The position numbers and the translations under genes are program-made. 64,000 nucleotides of DNA from a virus: IMG/VR virus record IMGVR_UViG_3300026484_000382, positions 10,702-74,701 of that record. One strand, given 5' to 3'. This document shows, piece by piece, positions 3,315 through 7,893 of this stretch (its first letter is position 1; every line of letters begins with the position of its first letter). The notes under the pieces were generated by a model. That model was given only the letters and a program-made list of their open reading frames with translations. It did not search any database and was not told the DNA's origin.

Positions 3315-3946
3315 TGTTTGATTTCTTTAATGTAAAAAAACGAGTAAATGAGTTTGATGACTCTTTTATTCGTTTTAGGCTTTATCTGAACTTTATTTAT
3401 GCAATAGGTCTTGCTTTTGCATCACCTGTATCTACAGCTCTTAAAGGGATAGAATTTCAAGGCATTTTGTGGTTAATTCCATTTTTTACATTACTTGGTG
3501 TAATCCTATCTAAATACACTGAATTCCTTGTTAAGAAGTTAACGATACAAATTGCTCATAAATTAATAGGAGTATCTACATTGCTTATAGTTTTTATTCC
3601 ATTTATTTATGCTTATAATCACTTTTTAGCAGCCATATATCTATCTGCATTGATTGTTTTTGATGGATTGATATTTGGTGTTTATGGTGTATTTTTAACT
3701 AACTACATAACAAAAATTAATCCCGAGTTGATAAGCAAATATCAAACAACAAGAATTCATGTTTGGGCAGATGGGGCTTTAATAGGAGGAGTTTTAGCGT
3801 TATTTATCATAGGTAATGATGATATTTGGTATGGAATGTTAGCAGCTGCTGTTGTAGATACAACTATTGTAATAATGTTTATAAATAATTACAAACATAT
3901 AAAAGACATAAAAGAAGAGGAATACAAAATAAAGGATAAAAAATGA
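3314..3946 (+). CDS. Polytopic membrane protein (about 6 TM, resembles half an MFS transporter)
   Basis: Six hydrophobic segments; GAGGA SD. Confidence 0.6.
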   Translation: MFDFFNVKKRVNEFDDSFIRFRLYLNFIYAIGLAFASPVSTALKGIEFQGILWLIPFFTLLGVILSKYTEFLVKKLTIQIAHKLIGVSTLLIVFIPFIYAYNHFLAAIYLSALIVFDGLIFGVYGVFLTNYITKINPELISKYQTTRIHVWADGALIGGVLALFIIGNDDIWYGMLAAAVVDTTIVIMFINNYKHIKDIKEEEYKIKDKK

Positions 3947-4719
3947 TTAGAGAAATAGAATTACTAGGAAACGCAGGAGCATTTGATTTTGATAAGGTGT
4001 CATCAAGTTTCTTAATGAGAAAAGAAAATGATTCCCTTGCACTTATTGATTGTGGACACGGAGTAAATAATGTATTAAAAAAGAGAGGTCTTATAGGGCA
4101 AATCGAGGAAGTTTATATCACTCATACTCATTTTGACCATATAGCTGATTTAGAAGGTTTAATTTATTGTAGATATTTTGTTTACGGTAAAAAAACAACT
4201 ATTAGAACATCAACTACTATTATTGAAGAGTTAAAAAACATATTTGGTAATAGATTTGATACAGAATATTTTAATGGTGAGAATATTCCTGCTCGAATGG
4301 TTGAATATAAAAAAGTAGGAAAGTGTAATGACTATAGACATGGAGATTATGCAGAAGAGTGTTATTTTGATGTAAATCATGGAACTATGAATGCTGTTGG
4401 GTTTAAATTTGTGTCTTATAAACAAGCAGATGGTTATAAAAAAGCAAACAATGTAGTTATAGTATCAGGAGATACAAAAGCTTGTAAAACAATACTTAAT
4501 GAGATTGAAACAATGCCGCAGTGGGTAAATGGTAAATTTATTGTTTTCCACGATTACAGTATGTTTAATAATCCTTGTAAGAATATTCATATGTGCGAGA
4601 TTGATTATGATTTAATGTATGAGAAAGCAGTAGAAGAAGCTAAAGAAAAATGCAAAGATTTTCAACTTTTATTATATCATGATAACTTTAATAATAAATT
4701 ACATAAGGTAGTATTATGA
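3943..4719 (+). CDS. Metallo-beta-lactamase-fold hydrolase (RNase Z / Apyc1-like)
   Basis: LIDCG, THTHFDH (HxHxDH), NHG and SGDT motifs plus distal HD/H ligands. Confidence 0.85.
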   Translation: MIREIELLGNAGAFDFDKVSSSFLMRKENDSLALIDCGHGVNNVLKKRGLIGQIEEVYITHTHFDHIADLEGLIYCRYFVYGKKTTIRTSTTIIEELKNIFGNRFDTEYFNGENIPARMVEYKKVGKCNDYRHGDYAEECYFDVNHGTMNAVGFKFVSYKQADGYKKANNVVIVSGDTKACKTILNEIETMPQWVNGKFIVFHDYSMFNNPCKNIHMCEIDYDLMYEKAVEEAKEKCKDFQLLLYHDNFNNKLHKVVL

Positions 4720-5171
4720 ATATAGATATAATAAAAATCTTTTTAATAATATTTAGTATTATAATGATACTACTTATTAGTGTATTGATAATGGATGTAA
4801 AAAATTCACCTACTCTTTTAAACTTTTATGTGTTTATGCTGATTTTTTATTCTTATATTCTTGGTAATTTTTTGGGTAAAGATAAAGAGATAGAAACTTG
4901 TTATCGCGAAAAGAAAATGTTACTGGAAAGTGAAATGACTTGTCTTAAGGCCTTTAATAAACGCACAGATAGTTTACTAAAAGACTTGTTGTATGAATAT
5001 AAAGGGAAGAGATATGTTTTACTTGAAAATGTAGAATTTAAACCTACAACAAACGGAAGTAATAGAGATTGGGTTGAAGGTGTAGCTTATGCTCCTATAG
5101 ATGACAGTTTTAAAACATATGTAAGAGATAAAGAAGAATTTTTTGATAGATTTAAAAAGGTGGAGCAATAA
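4716..5171 (+). CDS. Membrane-anchored protein with C-terminal DUF1653-like domain
   Basis: Two N-terminal TM segments; YEYKGKRY...VAY...TYVRDKEEFFDRF. Confidence 0.6.
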   Translation: MNIDIIKIFLIIFSIIMILLISVLIMDVKNSPTLLNFYVFMLIFYSYILGNFLGKDKEIETCYREKKMLLESEMTCLKAFNKRTDSLLKDLLYEYKGKRYVLLENVEFKPTTNGSNRDWVEGVAYAPIDDSFKTYVRDKEEFFDRFKKVEQ

Positions 5172-5183
5172 ATGTTTCCCTTT

Positions 5184-5285
5184 TTAAGGTTCTATTTTAC
5201 ACTTCCAATTAAATTCCCCTAAAAATCTTTTAAACTTCTGAAGTTTTACATTTATTCTTTTACATTGTTTTTTTAGTTTTGGCAT
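5184..5285 (-). CDS. 33-aa cationic micropeptide A (MPKLKKQCKRINVKLQKFKRFLGEFNWKCKIEP)
   Basis: Own TATAAT box (5317-5322, minus strand) and AAAGGA SD; homologous to 7262..7357. Confidence 0.7.
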   Translation of the reverse strand: MPKLKKQCKRINVKLQKFKRFLGEFNWKCKIEP

Positions 5286-5316
5286 GTTTTAGTCCTTTAT
5301 TTTTTTTGAAGTTGGA

Positions 5317-5352
5317 ATTATATCTAAAAAAAATAATATTTTTTTGTATAAT
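5317..5352. promoter_or_regulatory. Divergent -10 boxes
   Basis: TATAAT on the minus strand at 5317-5322 and on the plus strand at 5347-5352, each followed by an A-run and AAGGA. Confidence 0.6.
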
Positions 5353-5372
5353 TTTAAAAAAAAAGGAATAAA

Positions 5373-6251
5373 ATGGGAGCTAATCGTTTTCTATTGTATA
5401 AACAAGCTATAACAGAACAAGAACTTATAAAATCTATAAATAGACGAATTTCTGGGATAAAGAAAAAAAATAAAGACTTTTCAGTTTTAACACATTCTCA
5501 GCTATTTAATTTTTTTGATTTGAAAAGAAAGTATTTAGATTGGATAAAAGAAAAGAAAAATTCTTTAGATGGTTTTTTAGAAAATGCAAAAGGTGGGATG
5601 AATAAAAATTACTTTAATAGTTTATTAAAAGATTATCAAGAAATTGAAGAGAAAAAACCAGATTTAGTAAACAAAGCTGCTTACAAAGCATTAGATGATT
5701 TACTTGATGATGGTTTTTTTCAAGCGAGAGGTATAGGTGGAAAATATTTTAGAGATAAAGGTATAATAATAGGAAAACAAAAACAAACAAATGGAAGAAG
5801 ATCTACTCTATTCCATGAATTAAATGAACACTCTAATAGAAATAAGAAAGTAAATTGGTATGATTTGAACAAATCAAAAGATGATGAAATTACACATTAC
5901 AATGTGTCCAATGTAAAGGGATTAGACCATAATTTGTTAGTAACAGCAAAGGGTAAATTAAGAAAAGATTTAGAGTTAGTTGGTAAATACTCGAAAAATA
6001 ATGGAGGTTATACACTAGAAAAACTTGTTAGGAGAGTTCTTGGAAAGGACAATCCAGAATTTTTAAACTGGGAGTATGGAAAAGGAAGAAAATTAAATAG
6101 ACATCACAGAAAAAAACTTTTAGAGTTTGAACATAAGCATGCTAGTAACTTTCAAAGCCCTTTAAATGATTCTTACTTAAGAAACATTAAAAATAAAAAT
6201 AGAAACAAAAAGAAAAAAGCAATTTTTTCAGAATATATAAAATACATTTAA
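5373..6251 (+). CDS. Basic protein with KxA leader (MGANRFLLYKQA); putative internal head cargo
   Basis: Leader motif shared with other genes; own promoter; K/N-rich body containing FHELNE. Confidence 0.6.
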   Translation: MGANRFLLYKQAITEQELIKSINRRISGIKKKNKDFSVLTHSQLFNFFDLKRKYLDWIKEKKNSLDGFLENAKGGMNKNYFNSLLKDYQEIEEKKPDLVNKAAYKALDDLLDDGFFQARGIGGKYFRDKGIIIGKQKQTNGRRSTLFHELNEHSNRNKKVNWYDLNKSKDDEITHYNVSNVKGLDHNLLVTAKGKLRKDLELVGKYSKNNGGYTLEKLVRRVLGKDNPEFLNWEYGKGRKLNRHHRKKLLEFEHKHASNFQSPLNDSYLRNIKNKNRNKKKKAIFSEYIKYI

Positions 6252-6262
6252 AAGGAACAAAT

Positions 6263-6581
6263 ATGAGTAAATAGCACACACAAGAGAATATGGGATGTGG
6301 ATAGCAAAAATAATTAGAAGAGATAAAACTTATTTAATTTGTGGTTCTATTAAAAATAGAAGGGCTCATCATATTAATTCTGGTAGTTACCTTCCTGAAG
6401 ATAGGTATAGAGAGAAAAATGGTGTGTGTTTATGTGAAAAACATCATAAATTGTTTCATACATCTTACAAGAACTCTTTTAGAGAGAAATGTACAAAAAA
6501 AAAGATTTTAGTAATTTTTTAGAATTTATATTGAAATTTGTTCCTGTTGATGAAGATTGTGGTATTATAACAGCAACTTGA
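6263..6581 (+). pseudogene. Decayed HNH endonuclease paralogue of 6912..7253
   Basis: SD and ATG at 6263. Codon 4 is TAG where the paralogue has TGG, followed by a 1-nt deletion. A later poly-A run has 9 A against 7 in the paralogue (frameshift). The middle aligns closely with the intact copy. Confidence 0.8.
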
Positions 6582-6635
6582 CATATATGTAAGAGAGAAA
6601 AAAGAGTTTTTTAGAAAATTTAAACGAATAACCCC

Positions 6636-6664
6636 TTGATTTAATTTGAACTATAAGGTATAAT
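6636..6664 (+). promoter_or_regulatory. Sigma70-type promoter with no immediate downstream ORF
   Basis: TTGATT (6636-6641), 17-nt spacer, TATAAT (6659-6664). Confidence 0.7.
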
Positions 6665-6670
6665 CTCTAT

Positions 6671-6827
6671 CGTCCTGAGAATAGTTAATTTTTACAATTT
6701 TTTTACCTTGTTTGTAATAATTTTTAACTCATATTTCTTGCTATTAAAAGTTTTAATTTTTTTAACAAGGGTATCCCCCTTTGTGTGTTCCTTATAATAT
6801 TTTACATTTTAGTTTCTTCTCAGGACG
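6671..6827 (+). ncRNA. Candidate ~157-nt small RNA closed by an 11-bp terminal stem
   Basis: Begins about 7 nt after the -10 box. CGTCCTGAGAA (6671-6681) is the exact reverse complement of TTCTCAGGACG (6817-6827). Internal hairpins have U-rich/CCUU loops and there is no meaningful ORF. Confidence 0.55.
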
Positions 6828-6852
6828 CACTCTTTATTCTCCTCCATATATT

Positions 6853-6883
6853 TAGTATAATGCACTATTAGTGCATTATACTA
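6853..6883. repeat. Perfect 15-1-15 palindrome containing TATAAT on both strands
   Basis: TAGTATAATGCACTA-T-TAGTGCATTATACTA. Confidence 0.9.
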
Positions 6884-6911
6884 TCAAACAAAATCAAGAA
6901 AAAGGAATATT

Positions 6912-7253
6912 ATGGCAACATGGCATTCAAGTAGAGAATATAGAATTTGGAGAGCAAAAATAATTAGAACACAAAAAGAATGTTTAATTTGTTCATCTAT
7001 AAAAAAAAGAGCTGCTCATCACATGGATAGTGGTAGTTATTTCCCAGATGAAAGATATAAAATGGATAATGGTGTATGTTTATGCGGAAAACATCACAGA
7101 ATGTTTCATAATTCCTACAAAAATAGTTATAGAGAAAAGTGTACAAAAAAAGACTTTGCTAATTTTTTAGAATTAATGATTAAAATTTCAAATGAAACAG
7201 GTTGCTATAATAAAGAAAAAATGATAGAATTCCGTTCAAAAATTTTAAAATAG
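6912..7253 (+). CDS. HNH endonuclease
   Basis: CxxC, AHH, DNGVCLCGKHHRMFH; AAAGGA SD. Confidence 0.85.
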   Translation: MATWHSSREYRIWRAKIIRTQKECLICSSIKKRAAHHMDSGSYFPDERYKMDNGVCLCGKHHRMFHNSYKNSYREKCTKKDFANFLELMIKISNETGCYNKEKMIEFRSKILK

Positions 7254-7261
7254 GAAAGTAC

Positions 7262-7357
7262 ATGAAAAAGATGCATAAACTAAAAAGAGTTTGTAAAGTT
7301 AAAGTAGAGAAAACAAAAAGGTTTTTAAAGACCTTTAATTGGAAATGTGAATTTTAA
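7262..7357 (+). CDS. 31-aa cationic micropeptide B (MKKMHKLKRVCKVKVEKTKRFLKTFNWKCEF)
   Basis: AGGA SD; shares KLK..C, VK, KRFL and FNWKC with peptide A. Confidence 0.7.
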   Translation: MKKMHKLKRVCKVKVEKTKRFLKTFNWKCEF

Positions 7358-7893
7358 TATCCATTTTCCTCTCTGTTTTGTCTAGCTTTGTAAACACCAT
7401 ACCCACCTGCTAATGTTAGAGCACCAGCCCCAATACCAGTCTTTATTTTATTCTCTTTCATCCAGTTTAAAACACTATTACCTGATTTAGTTGTAGTATC
7501 TATATTTGTATTGTATATCTTTTGCTTAAATCTTTTTCTTTCTTCTGCTTTGTTTTTTAATTTTTTGATAGAAATAGGTGTTTCATTGTTAAGGTTAATT
7601 TCTTGTTGTATATTTTTAACTTCAGGTGTTTCTTTTTGTGATGCCCTATATTGATCTCTTTCTGCTTTAAACTTTGTTTTAGACCCCTGTCCAGAAATAT
7701 GTTTTAACTCTTTATGTTCTTCTGGGGTAATTAAACCATTTGCTAGCATTTCATCTAGCTTTTTGTGTAATTTGTTTTGTTTCCCGTTAAATTCATTACT
7801 ATTAACAAAATCCATTATAAACTTATTATTACCGAATCTATCTTTTATTTTATTATAATAAGCCGTTTTAATTAAGTATTGTGTTGCATTCAT
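7354..7893 (-). CDS. KxA-leader protein (MNATQYLIKTA) with C-terminal Gly-rich hydrophobic helix
   Basis: Leader motif; C-terminal TGIGAGALTLAGGYGVY; A-run AAGGA SD. Confidence 0.7.
   Translation of the reverse strand: MNATQYLIKTAYYNKIKDRFGNNKFIMDFVNSNEFNGKQNKLHKKLDEMLANGLITPEEHKELKHISGQGSKTKFKAERDQYRASQKETPEVKNIQQEINLNNETPISIKKLKNKAEERKRFKQKIYNTNIDTTTKSGNSVLNWMKENKIKTGIGAGALTLAGGYGVYKARQNREENGY

What the first reader, a model, noticed from the sequence alone, without database searches (positions are those of the whole stretch)
6636..6827. Promoter-driven candidate small RNA with closing stem and anti-SD-like loops
A TTGATT-17-TATAAT promoter points at a non-coding U-rich 157-nt stretch whose first and last 11 nt pair perfectly. 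That stem is GC-rich against a very AT-rich background. An internal hairpin (AGTTAA..TTACAA/TTGTAA..TTAACT) presents UUUUUUUACCUUG, and UCCCCCUUUG and UGUUCCUU follow. These segments are complementary to AAGG(A/G) ribosome-binding sites. ACUCAUAUUU (6727-6736) and UGUUCCUU (6786-6793) together complement the SD/start of the upstream HNH copy (6252-6268), though this may be chance in AT-rich DNA. Inference: a multi-target translational-repressor sRNA.
Basis: partly seen in the sequence, partly recalled or inferred. Interest (0 to 1): 0.7.

Follow-up and report, generated by a model that had tools for sequence, protein, structure and literature searches.

The report
Structured non-coding spacer before phage HNH
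A 157-base non-coding stretch in a deep-sea-vent phage really does have a promoter-like site and G+C-rich paired ends, but nothing supports a ribosome-site-blocking regulator; it is most likely a structured leader of a homing-endonuclease island, and sister phages carry a stray TnpB guide-RNA scaffold inserted in its middle.

Summary
The stem is the only G+C-rich 11-mer inverted repeat in the window (about 7% of simulated windows have one), and the fold z-score is -4.6. The anti-SD motifs and the match to the upstream HNH start are not beyond chance, and that start belongs to a dead 3-codon pseudogene.

There is no Rfam hit, and no copy outside one phage lineage.

Sister phages (L018/L019, about 96% identical here) have the same promoter, stem and hairpins. 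They also carry 134 extra bases inserted at 6727|6728, inside the proposed hairpin. That insert is a complete TnpB guide-RNA (omega/reRNA, RAGATH-18-type) scaffold ending in GGTTCAC, with no tnpB found. Its guide position reads the window's uninterrupted sequence, 19 of 20 bases, behind TTTAA. The window therefore holds the empty allele.

Best reading (about 0.4): a rightward-transcribed, structured leader or short RNA of the HNH homing-endonuclease island, not a multi-target translational repressor. A non-functional rearrangement relic is nearly as likely.

This scan has noted solo TnpB guide scaffolds behind phage promoters before, on other DNA.

The parts
6636..6664 (+). P1: sigma-70-like promoter, TTGATT - 17 nt - TATAAT. 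The predicted start falls at about 6669-6671, the first base of the closing stem.
   Evidence: 10/12 match. Conserved in L018/L019 with one spacer change. In those phages the stop codon of the upstream 151-aa gene overlaps the -35 hexamer. Promoter-like hits are frequent in this AT-rich DNA, so function is inferred, not shown.
6671..6681 (+). 5' arm of the closing stem (CGTCCTGAGAA)
   Evidence: In L018 the first base is T, which gives U.G on the + strand and an A.C mismatch on the - strand.
6683..6729 (+). AU-rich two-tier hairpin: AGTTAA/TTAACT outside, TTACAA/TTGTAA inside, with a 14-nt U-rich loop containing ACCUUG
   Evidence: MFE fold. The outer tier loses its G-C pair in sister phages because the 134-nt insert enters at 6727|6728.
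6723..6747 (+). Uninterrupted ('empty') site of the sister-phage insertion: TTTAA | CTCATATTTCTTGCTATTAA. The insert enters between 6727 and 6728. The 20 nt to its right equal the guide position of the sister phages' solo TnpB guide scaffold, 19/20 with the mismatch at C6730.
   Evidence: Alignment A1. The boundary coincides exactly with the conserved scaffold end GGTTCAC.
6765..6793 (+). GC hairpin ACAAGGG-UAUCCC-CCUUUGU followed by a U-rich tail. Terminator-like on the + strand only.
   Evidence: Flagged by the terminator scan (3 sites in 4 kb against 0.8 expected, two of them this hairpin). Present in the MFE and centroid folds. Stem unchanged in L018.
6817..6827 (+). 3' arm of the closing stem (TTCTCAGGACG)
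   Evidence: Unchanged in L018/L019.
6853..6883 (+). Perfect 15+15 palindrome TAGTATAATGCACTA-T-TAGTGCATTATACTA. Its left arm carries TTTAGTATAAT (P2), which matches this phage's own promoter repeat.
   Evidence: (repeat family D6). A similar CTCCTC..CATATAT..TTTAGATATAAT stretch precedes HNH homologues in L005 and L003. In L018, A6878G and A6880G keep U.G pairs on + RNA and destroy the minus-strand TATAAT.
6902..7253 (+). RBS (AAGGAA, 6902-6907) and the intact 113-aa HNH endonuclease gene (6912-7253)
   Evidence: weak HNH_2 hit. Homologues in five other viral contigs. 14 of 17 substitutions against L018 fall at third codon positions.
5139..6606 (+). 1,468-bp segment that sister phages lack: minus-strand 33-aa peptide gene, 292-aa ORF, frameshifted HNH pseudogene (6252-6581) and a second copy of the 3' end of the 151-aa gene (6578-6624)
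   Evidence: Repeats D2, D13, D17 and I4. Contigs in three runs join 5138>6607 or 5103>6583. L018/L019 run from the 151-aa gene straight into P1.

Best explanation
The stretch is the non-coding spacer of a small, rearrangement-prone HNH homing-endonuclease island in an uncultured, 28% G+C phage from hydrothermal-vent metagenomes.

Most likely it is transcribed rightward from P1 (6636-6664) as a structured RNA domain:
- an 11-bp G+C-rich helix joins the predicted 5' end to 6817-6827;
- an AU-rich hairpin and a terminator-like GC hairpin (6765-6793) lie inside it.

Inferred role: a cis-acting leader or attenuator, or a short terminated transcript. It would insulate the HNH gene from the early promoter, while the gene uses its own promoter (P2) in the palindrome at 6853-6883.

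Shown rather than inferred: sister phages have a 134-nt solo TnpB guide-RNA (omega/reRNA) scaffold inserted at 6727|6728, in the + orientation, 57 nt behind the predicted P1 start. The window therefore carries the uninterrupted allele of that site, TTTAA followed by a 19/20 match to the scaffold's guide position.

The stretch is not a demonstrable anti-Shine-Dalgarno regulator.
For: Structure:
- Fold z = -4.63, with the closing stem in both the MFE and centroid structures.
- It folds as an independent domain when HNH leader sequence is added.
- The closing stem persists in the 295-nt sister version.
- It is the only 11-mer inverted repeat in the window with 6 or more G/C.

Strand:
- The GC hairpin has a U-rich tail only on the + strand.
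- All four substitutions in helices are pair-preserving on the + strand only.
- The minus-strand TATAAT is lost in L018.
- The solo guide scaffold in the sister phages sits in the + orientation just behind P1.

Constraint:
- Window and L018 are 96.2% identical in the element. HNH third codon positions differ at 12.3%, P = 0.017.
- All 6 substitutions and 3 small indels lie in unpaired positions or keep pairs.

Context:
- An HNH-cassette promoter region similar to 6838-6861 occurs in other phages without the element.
- L017 has neither the element nor the HNH gene behind the 151-aa gene.

Insert identity:
- Rfam RAGATH-18 scores 30 bits, E = 0.0011.
- More than 80 viral loci share the 5' hairpin, RAGATH-18 stem, 3' hairpin and (A/G)GTTCAC layout.
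- 8 of 8 upstream ORFs tested are TnpB.
- A covariance model built without L018 scores the insert at 89.6 bits, E = 2.5e-22, over its full length.
- RAGATH-18 is the scaffold of IS607 TnpB reRNA (PMC11061315).
- Gene-less PATE elements that encode omega RNAs are described (bioRxiv 10.1101/2023.03.14.532601).
Against: - There are no transcript data of any kind.
- Promoter-like matches are common in this DNA.
- Only one lineage carries the element, at about 96% identity, so there is no true covariation.
- Divergence along the region is uneven: neighbouring segments are 99% identical. The low divergence could therefore reflect recent recombination rather than constraint.
- The terminator-like tail is poor (GUGUGUUCCUUA), and no canonical terminator follows the 3' arm.
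- The element tolerates a 134-nt insertion and small indels.
- The predicted fold does not sequester the HNH ribosome-binding site, so the attenuator role is inference.
Confidence: 0.4

Rival explanations
1. Non-functional relic. The spacer is debris from repeated insertion, duplication and inversion of HNH cassettes at this hotspot. The paired ends and hairpins are leftovers or chance, and P1 is just one more promoter-like match.
For: - The island is visibly rearranged. It holds a tandem HNH copy that has decayed to a pseudogene, a duplicated 3' end of the 151-aa gene, and inverted copies of a 31-33-aa peptide gene.
- The minus strand of 6708-6758 is about 75% similar to 6236-6285. The local alignment scores 35 against 22.8 +/- 3.4 in shuffles. 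With lenient scoring P = 0.003, and 2.2% of other window chunks do as well.
- The element is absent from more distant HNH cassettes and from L017.
- It was not found elsewhere by pattern scans.
- It tolerates a 134-nt insertion.
Against: - The fold z-score is -4.6, and the arms are G+C-rich in 27% G+C DNA.
- It diverges more slowly than HNH third codon positions.
- The substitutions avoid helices or preserve their pairs.
- The stem starts exactly at the predicted transcription start.
Confidence: 0.3
2. One reading: a trans-acting small RNA whose U/C-rich loops pair with AAGGA ribosome-binding sites of several phage or host mRNAs and block translation.
For: - A promoter-like site lies directly in front of a stably folded domain.
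- ACCUUG and UAUCCC lie in predicted loops.
- UUCCUU (6788-6793) is complementary to the AAGGAA ribosome-binding site of the downstream HNH gene.
Against: - CCTT-type motifs are not enriched, P = 0.19.
- Any U-rich RNA complements the A-rich leaders of this phage. Shuffled versions reach longer contiguous coverage of initiation regions than the real sequence, mean 16.9 nt against 12 nt.
- The 17-nt match is to a dead 3-codon start, is one of 26 comparable matches on the + strand, and is not conserved in L018.
- There is no Rfam family.
- There is no clear terminator at the 3' arm.
Confidence: 0.08
3. The mRNA of a type I toxin-antitoxin-like module. A small hydrophobic peptide (6785-6871, 28 aa) would have its ribosome-binding site (AAGGG) locked in the GC hairpin, with the mRNA closed by 5'-3' pairing and controlled by an antisense RNA from the palindrome's minus-strand promoter.
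For: - The 28-aa ORF is hydrophobic.
- AAGGG lies 13 nt upstream, inside a hairpin.
- Its GTG start is ATG in L018.
- 5'-3' pairing of the mRNA resembles hok and aapA toxin mRNAs (my own knowledge).
Against: - A +TT indel frameshifts the ORF after residue 10 in L018, giving 25 aa with a different tail.
- The minus-strand TATAAT is destroyed in L018.
- U-rich DNA yields hydrophobic ORFs by default.
- There is no Pfam match.
- The other ORF (6708-6797) has no ribosome-binding site and is split by the 134-nt insert.
Confidence: 0.05
4. A DNA-level element: the 11-bp inverted repeats are the ends of a miniature transposable element, the crossover sites of an invertible segment, or paired protein-binding sites.
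For: - Perfect G+C-rich terminal inverted repeats bound an AT-rich 135-bp interior.
- The locus is a hotspot for mobile DNA.
Against: - It is single-copy in the 74.7-kb contig and absent from related contigs and from pattern scans of the public collections.
- There is no convincing target-site duplication.
- No contig shows the segment inverted (table 5), although contigs drop rare variants.
- No recombinase gene lies nearby.
Confidence: 0.07

Closest known systems
Solo omega/reRNA scaffolds and gene-less PATE-like derivatives of TnpB transposons (IS200/IS605-IS607; RAGATH-18-derived reRNA of IS607 TnpB, PMC11061315; PATEs encoding omega RNAs, bioRxiv 10.1101/2023.03.14.532601)
   Same: The 134-nt insert of the sister phages has the full scaffold layout and ends at the conserved (A/G)GTTCAC. 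The sequence that follows it, the guide position, is the flank of the insertion site. The window shows the matching uninterrupted site behind TTTAA, as expected for a vacant donor or target site.
   Different: This applies to the sister allele, not to the window, which has no scaffold at all. No tnpB was found in any of the four related viral contigs. The insert has no recognisable left-end hairpin. The TAM of this subfamily was not determined.
Regulatory leaders and hairpins in front of free-standing phage homing-endonuclease genes, such as the T4 I-TevI and seg/mob genes (from my own knowledge, not checked here)
   Same: A free-standing HNH gene in a variable intergenic island, with its own promoter inside a hairpin-forming palindrome, preceded by a structured non-coding stretch that an upstream promoter would transcribe.
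   Different: In the T4 cases the hairpin sequesters the ribosome-binding site. Here the predicted fold leaves the site outside the structured domain. More distant HNH cassettes lack the element.
C/U-rich-loop small RNAs that pair with ribosome-binding sites, such as RsaE/RoxS of Firmicutes (from my own knowledge)
   Same: A promoter-driven RNA of about 100-160 nt with a UCCC-containing hairpin loop (UAUCCC, 6772-6777).
   Different: There is no motif enrichment, no conserved target pairing, no family match and no canonical terminator. This phage's ribosome-binding sites are A-rich AAGGA rather than G-rich.

Membership tests
TnpB omega/reRNA scaffold (RAGATH-18 type) | RAGATH-18 stem with the conserved GGAG...GAUGAA internal loops | tested here: not met
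   Window: no Rfam hit at E <= 0.1 in 64 kb, and no hit to the custom model R1. Sister allele L018:4579-4647: RF03064 at 30 bits, E = 0.0011, below the gathering score of 44.9, but 89.6 bits with R1.
TnpB omega/reRNA scaffold (RAGATH-18 type) | Flanking 5' hairpin and 3' hairpin, ending in (A/G)GTTCAC, after which sequences diverge (the guide) | tested here: not met
   Absent from the window. Present in full in L018/L019 at 4546-4679.
TnpB omega/reRNA scaffold (RAGATH-18 type) | A tnpB gene directly upstream | tested here: not met
   8 of 8 comparison loci have TnpB. In L018 the upstream gene is the 151-aa ORF. PF07282 is absent from G000-G003. All of these are incomplete genomes.
Trans-acting anti-SD small RNA | Unpaired C/U-rich motifs present beyond what composition predicts | tested here: not met
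   CCTT occurs 3 times against 1.66 expected, P = 0.19. CCCCCUUUG is largely base-paired.
Trans-acting anti-SD small RNA | Conserved complementarity to real translation-initiation regions | tested here: not met
   Best coverage of 126 initiation-like regions is 12 nt, against a shuffle mean of 16.9. The 6252-6268 match is to a pseudogene start, and ACTCAT reads CCTAAT in L018.
Trans-acting anti-SD small RNA | A discrete transcript with defined 5' and 3' ends | not testable with these tools
   No RNA run holding this DNA is listed. Only contigs of DNA runs could be laid.
Any Rfam family | Covariance-model match | tested here: not met
   nothing at 6636-6827 even at E <= 10.
Intrinsic terminator | G+C-rich hairpin followed by a U tract | tested here: inconclusive
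   6765-6784 plus its tail passes the consensus scan on the + strand. The stem includes a G.U pair and the tail has only about 5 U in 8.
Type I toxin-antitoxin | Conserved small hydrophobic ORF plus a conserved antisense promoter | tested here: not met
   The ORF is frameshifted in L018. The minus-strand -10 box is destroyed in L018.
Miniature inverted-repeat transposable element | Multiple copies and a target-site duplication | tested here: not met
   Single copy. No hits in the viral or genome collections. No clear duplication at the ends.

The most novel reading that the evidence does not exclude
The window's allele is the natural target in an RNA-guided contest between sister phages. The L018-type phages use P1 to express a gene-less TnpB guide scaffold. 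Its guide (CTAATATTTCTTGCTATTAA) reads the uninterrupted site of phages like this one, behind TTTAA. A TnpB supplied by the host or from elsewhere in the phage would then cut or convert the empty allele. The single difference at guide position 3 (C6730) would be an escape change. On this reading the 157-nt RNA matters as the expression platform and target, not as a regulator.
Probability: 0.12. Interest if true: 0.6.

Novelty: new member of a known kind. Interest (0 to 1): 0.3.

Why it matters
If the leader RNA is real, it adds one more lineage-specific regulatory structure to phage homing-endonuclease cassettes. That would be a modest gain.

The more useful result is comparative. The same spot in sister phages from the same vent samples holds a solo TnpB guide-RNA scaffold placed just behind a phage promoter and aimed at the allele seen here. 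Filled and empty alleles co-occur in one habitat. That makes a testable natural case for the question of whether gene-less guide RNAs in phages work in trans with a TnpB encoded elsewhere.

The analysis also warns that U-rich 'anti-SD' segments in AT-rich phages are expected from base composition alone.

Tried and rejected
- Rfam on 5-9 kb and on the whole window found nothing at the element.
- A phage GenBank blastn of 6200-7300 gave no match.
- The pattern scan used the wrong arm spacing (100-130 instead of 135) and was wasted. One search, with the right spacing, and (GC hairpin plus 3' arm, in the genome and viral collections) found nothing.
- HNH relatives L003-L007 share the gene only. 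L003 and L005 also share the promoter-proximal stretch, but none has the element.
- The 292-aa ORF has no relatives in the viral contigs. The closest phage contig, G001 (93% identical), starts at window 7503 and misses the locus.
No further alleles were available for covariation.
- Sequencing runs: no RNA holder is listed. This says nothing about expression.
- The 134-nt insert has no other copy in G000-G002, and model R1 finds none in G000-G003. No TnpB domain is present there. All of these are partial genomes.
- The genome-wide scan for the scaffold subfamily returned mainly Firmicutes MAGs and gave no clue to a vent host.
- Cis sequestration of the HNH ribosome-binding site by the element's UUCCUU is not predicted by folding.
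- A coding reading of the small ORFs was rejected.
- A 9-nt TTTAAACGA match to L005 and a TCTTTAT repeat near the arms were judged to be chance.

Full report
**Where the window comes from.** The window is part of a 74.7-kb viral contig that is about 46% complete. It has 26-32% G+C. Its DNA is held by hydrothermal-vent metagenome runs from several studies.

**Gene layout around the finding**:
- a 151-aa gene, 4716-5171 (+);
- a 33-aa basic peptide gene, 5184-5285 (-);
- a 292-aa ORF with no family, 5373-6251 (+);
- a frameshifted HNH copy, 6252-6581;
- a 47-nt second copy of the 3' end of the 151-aa gene, 6578-6624;
- the finding, 6636-6827;
- a perfect palindrome, 6853-6883;
- an intact 113-aa HNH gene, 6912-7253;
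- a 31-aa paralogue of the basic peptide, 7262-7357 (+);
- a convergent 179-aa gene.

**Checking the observation.**
- The arms CGTCCTGAGAA and TTCTCAGGACG occur nowhere else in the window.
- The 157-nt stretch folds with z = -4.63 on the + strand and -4.15 on the - strand. The closing stem, the two-tier AU hairpin and the GC hairpin at 6765-6784 appear in the MFE structure.
- In this AT-rich DNA, perfect 11-mer inverted repeats 20-300 nt apart are common: 64 observed against about 29 simulated. This is the only one with 6 or more G/C, and about 7% of simulated windows contain such a pair. The stem is therefore unusual but not overwhelming.
- The promoter scores 10/12, but promoter-like sites are frequent: 37 found against 27 expected in 4 kb.
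- The anti-SD claim fails. CCTT occurs 3 times against 1.66 in dinucleotide shuffles, P = 0.19. Shuffled U-rich sequences cover the A-rich initiation regions of this phage at least as well as the real one.
- The two-block match to 6252-6268 is one of 26 comparable matches on the + strand. It addresses the start of a pseudogene that stops after three codons.
- The 10-nt block of that match lies inside a roughly 50-nt inverted similarity between 6708-6758 and 6236-6285. This suggests a duplication relic.

**Relatives.** No Rfam family matches. More distant HNH cassettes share only the gene, and in L005 and L003 also the promoter-proximal CTCCTC..CATATAT..TTTAGATATAAT stretch.

Laying contigs of four runs showed variant genomes that join 5138>6607 or 5103>6583. 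They lack the 1,468-bp segment that holds the pseudogene. Two JGI metagenome contigs, L018 and L019, are of this type. In them the 151-aa gene ends in a TGA that overlaps the -35 hexamer of P1, and the element follows directly. A third relative, L017, has an SSB gene directly behind the 151-aa gene and neither the element nor the HNH gene. The whole element-plus-HNH unit is therefore a variable island.

**The key comparison.** L018/L019 keep P1, both arms and the GC hairpin.

Rfam gives RAGATH-18 for the centre of the insert: 30 bits, E = 0.0011, below the gathering score. RAGATH-18 is the core of the guide RNA (reRNA) of IS607-type TnpB nucleases (PMC11061315).

Those loci share the same layout as the insert: a 5' hairpin plus GAAUUUA(A/C)G, the RAGATH-18 stem, a 3' hairpin with a UCUUUAG loop, and then (A/G)GUUCAC. 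After that point the sequences diverge. Eight of eight upstream ORFs tested are TnpB, with the OrfB_IS605, TNB and HTH domains.

A covariance model built from nine TnpB-linked scaffolds, without L018, scores the L018/L019 insert at 89.6 bits, E = 2.5e-22, over all 136 model positions. It finds nothing in the window or in four related viral contigs.

The right edge of the insert is exactly the scaffold end, GGTTCAC. The next 20 nt, the guide position, are the phage sequence that in the window reads CTCATATTTCTTGCTATTAA: 19 of 20 identical, preceded by TTTAA. No tnpB domain is present in the four partial contigs. The sister phages thus carry a solo, PATE-like guide scaffold, a kind described before (bioRxiv 10.1101/2023.03.14.532601). 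This scan has also noted such scaffolds in other phages. The window carries the uninterrupted allele.

**What this says about the 157-nt stretch.**

Against a finely tuned trans-acting RNA:
- Its interior accepts a 134-nt structured insertion and three small indels in phages that are abundant in the same samples. The depth of the variant contigs is about 72-80, against about 177 for the window type.

For a real + strand RNA:
- The scaffold sits in the + orientation, 57 nt behind the predicted P1 start.
- The GC hairpin is terminator-like only on the + strand.
- The closing stem is still predicted in the 295-nt version.
- The four substitutions in helices are pair-preserving only on the + strand: C6671T, G6785A, A6878G and A6880G. 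The last two also destroy the minus-strand TATAAT.
- The element is 96.2% identical between window and L018, while HNH third positions differ at 12.3%, P = 0.017.

A caveat applies to the last point. Neighbouring segments are 99% identical, so divergence along the region is mosaic.

**Mechanism.** I commit, at about 0.4, to the following.
- P1 transcribes a structured leader whose ends pair and which contains a weak terminator.
- It acts in cis as an insulator or attenuator in front of the HNH gene, or ends as a short by-product RNA.
- The HNH gene is served by its own promoter, P2, whose TTTAGTATAAT matches the phage's promoter repeat family.

The sequence features, their conservation, the insertion and its identity are shown. 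Transcription, termination and the cis role are inferred.

The main rival, at about 0.3, is that the stretch is a non-functional relic of cassette rearrangements.

**Novelty.** The element itself is an orphan candidate leader RNA of a known general kind. The sister-phage insert is a new example of a known kind. Interest is modest (0.3). The most novel reading still open is RNA-guided competition between sister phages at this site (probability about 0.12).

**Limits.**
- No RNA run is listed for this DNA.
- One pattern scan was wasted on a wrong spacing.

Noticed in passing
window 5139-6606; repeats 5110-5156 and 6578-6624: A 1,468-bp segment holding a minus-strand 33-aa peptide gene, a 292-aa orphan ORF and a decayed HNH copy. 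It is bracketed by two 79%-identical copies of the 3' end of the 151-aa gene and is absent from sister genomes in three sequencing runs and two JGI contigs. It looks like a recombination or homing footprint that duplicated the gene end.
   Followed up: partly
window 5184-5285 (-) and 7262-7357 (+): Two paralogous basic peptides of 31-33 aa (..KRFL..FNWKC..) in inverted orientation at the two ends of the island. The right-hand one is 99% conserved in L018, with 1 substitution in 96 nt. Neither has a Pfam family.
   Followed up: partly
window 6853-6883: A perfect 15+15 palindrome carrying TATAAT on both strands, just upstream of the HNH ribosome-binding site. In L018 two A>G changes keep U.G pairing on the + strand RNA but break the DNA symmetry and the minus-strand -10 box. 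It could be an RNA hairpin, or a promoter or operator.
   Followed up: partly
L018:4546-4679 (also L019); no counterpart in the window: A solo 134-nt TnpB omega/reRNA scaffold with no tnpB in reach and no obvious left-end hairpin. Its closest scaffold among the 80 viral loci is that of L080, which shares GTGGTTCAC and the 5' hairpin sequence. The TAM is unknown; the site is preceded by TTTAA.
   Followed up: partly
L069:3268-3326 and 3696-3754 (-); L071:988-1060 (+) and 6087-6159 (-): Some viral contigs carry two RAGATH-18-type scaffolds. In L069 there is no same-strand ORF of 100 aa or more upstream of either. These may be further solo or tandem guide scaffolds.
   Followed up: no
window 3943-4719: The 258-aa metallo-beta-lactamase-fold protein gives a sub-threshold hit to the anti-Pycsar Apyc1 family: 26.6 bits against a cut-off of 50.
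   Followed up: no
G001:C1:40-127 and 160-247 (L009/L012); L018:5573-5660: An 88-nt stretch equal to window 7503-7590 occurs twice at the start of the related contig G001 and at the very end of the L018 contig. It is probably an assembly break or repeat at this point of the 179-aa gene.
   Followed up: no
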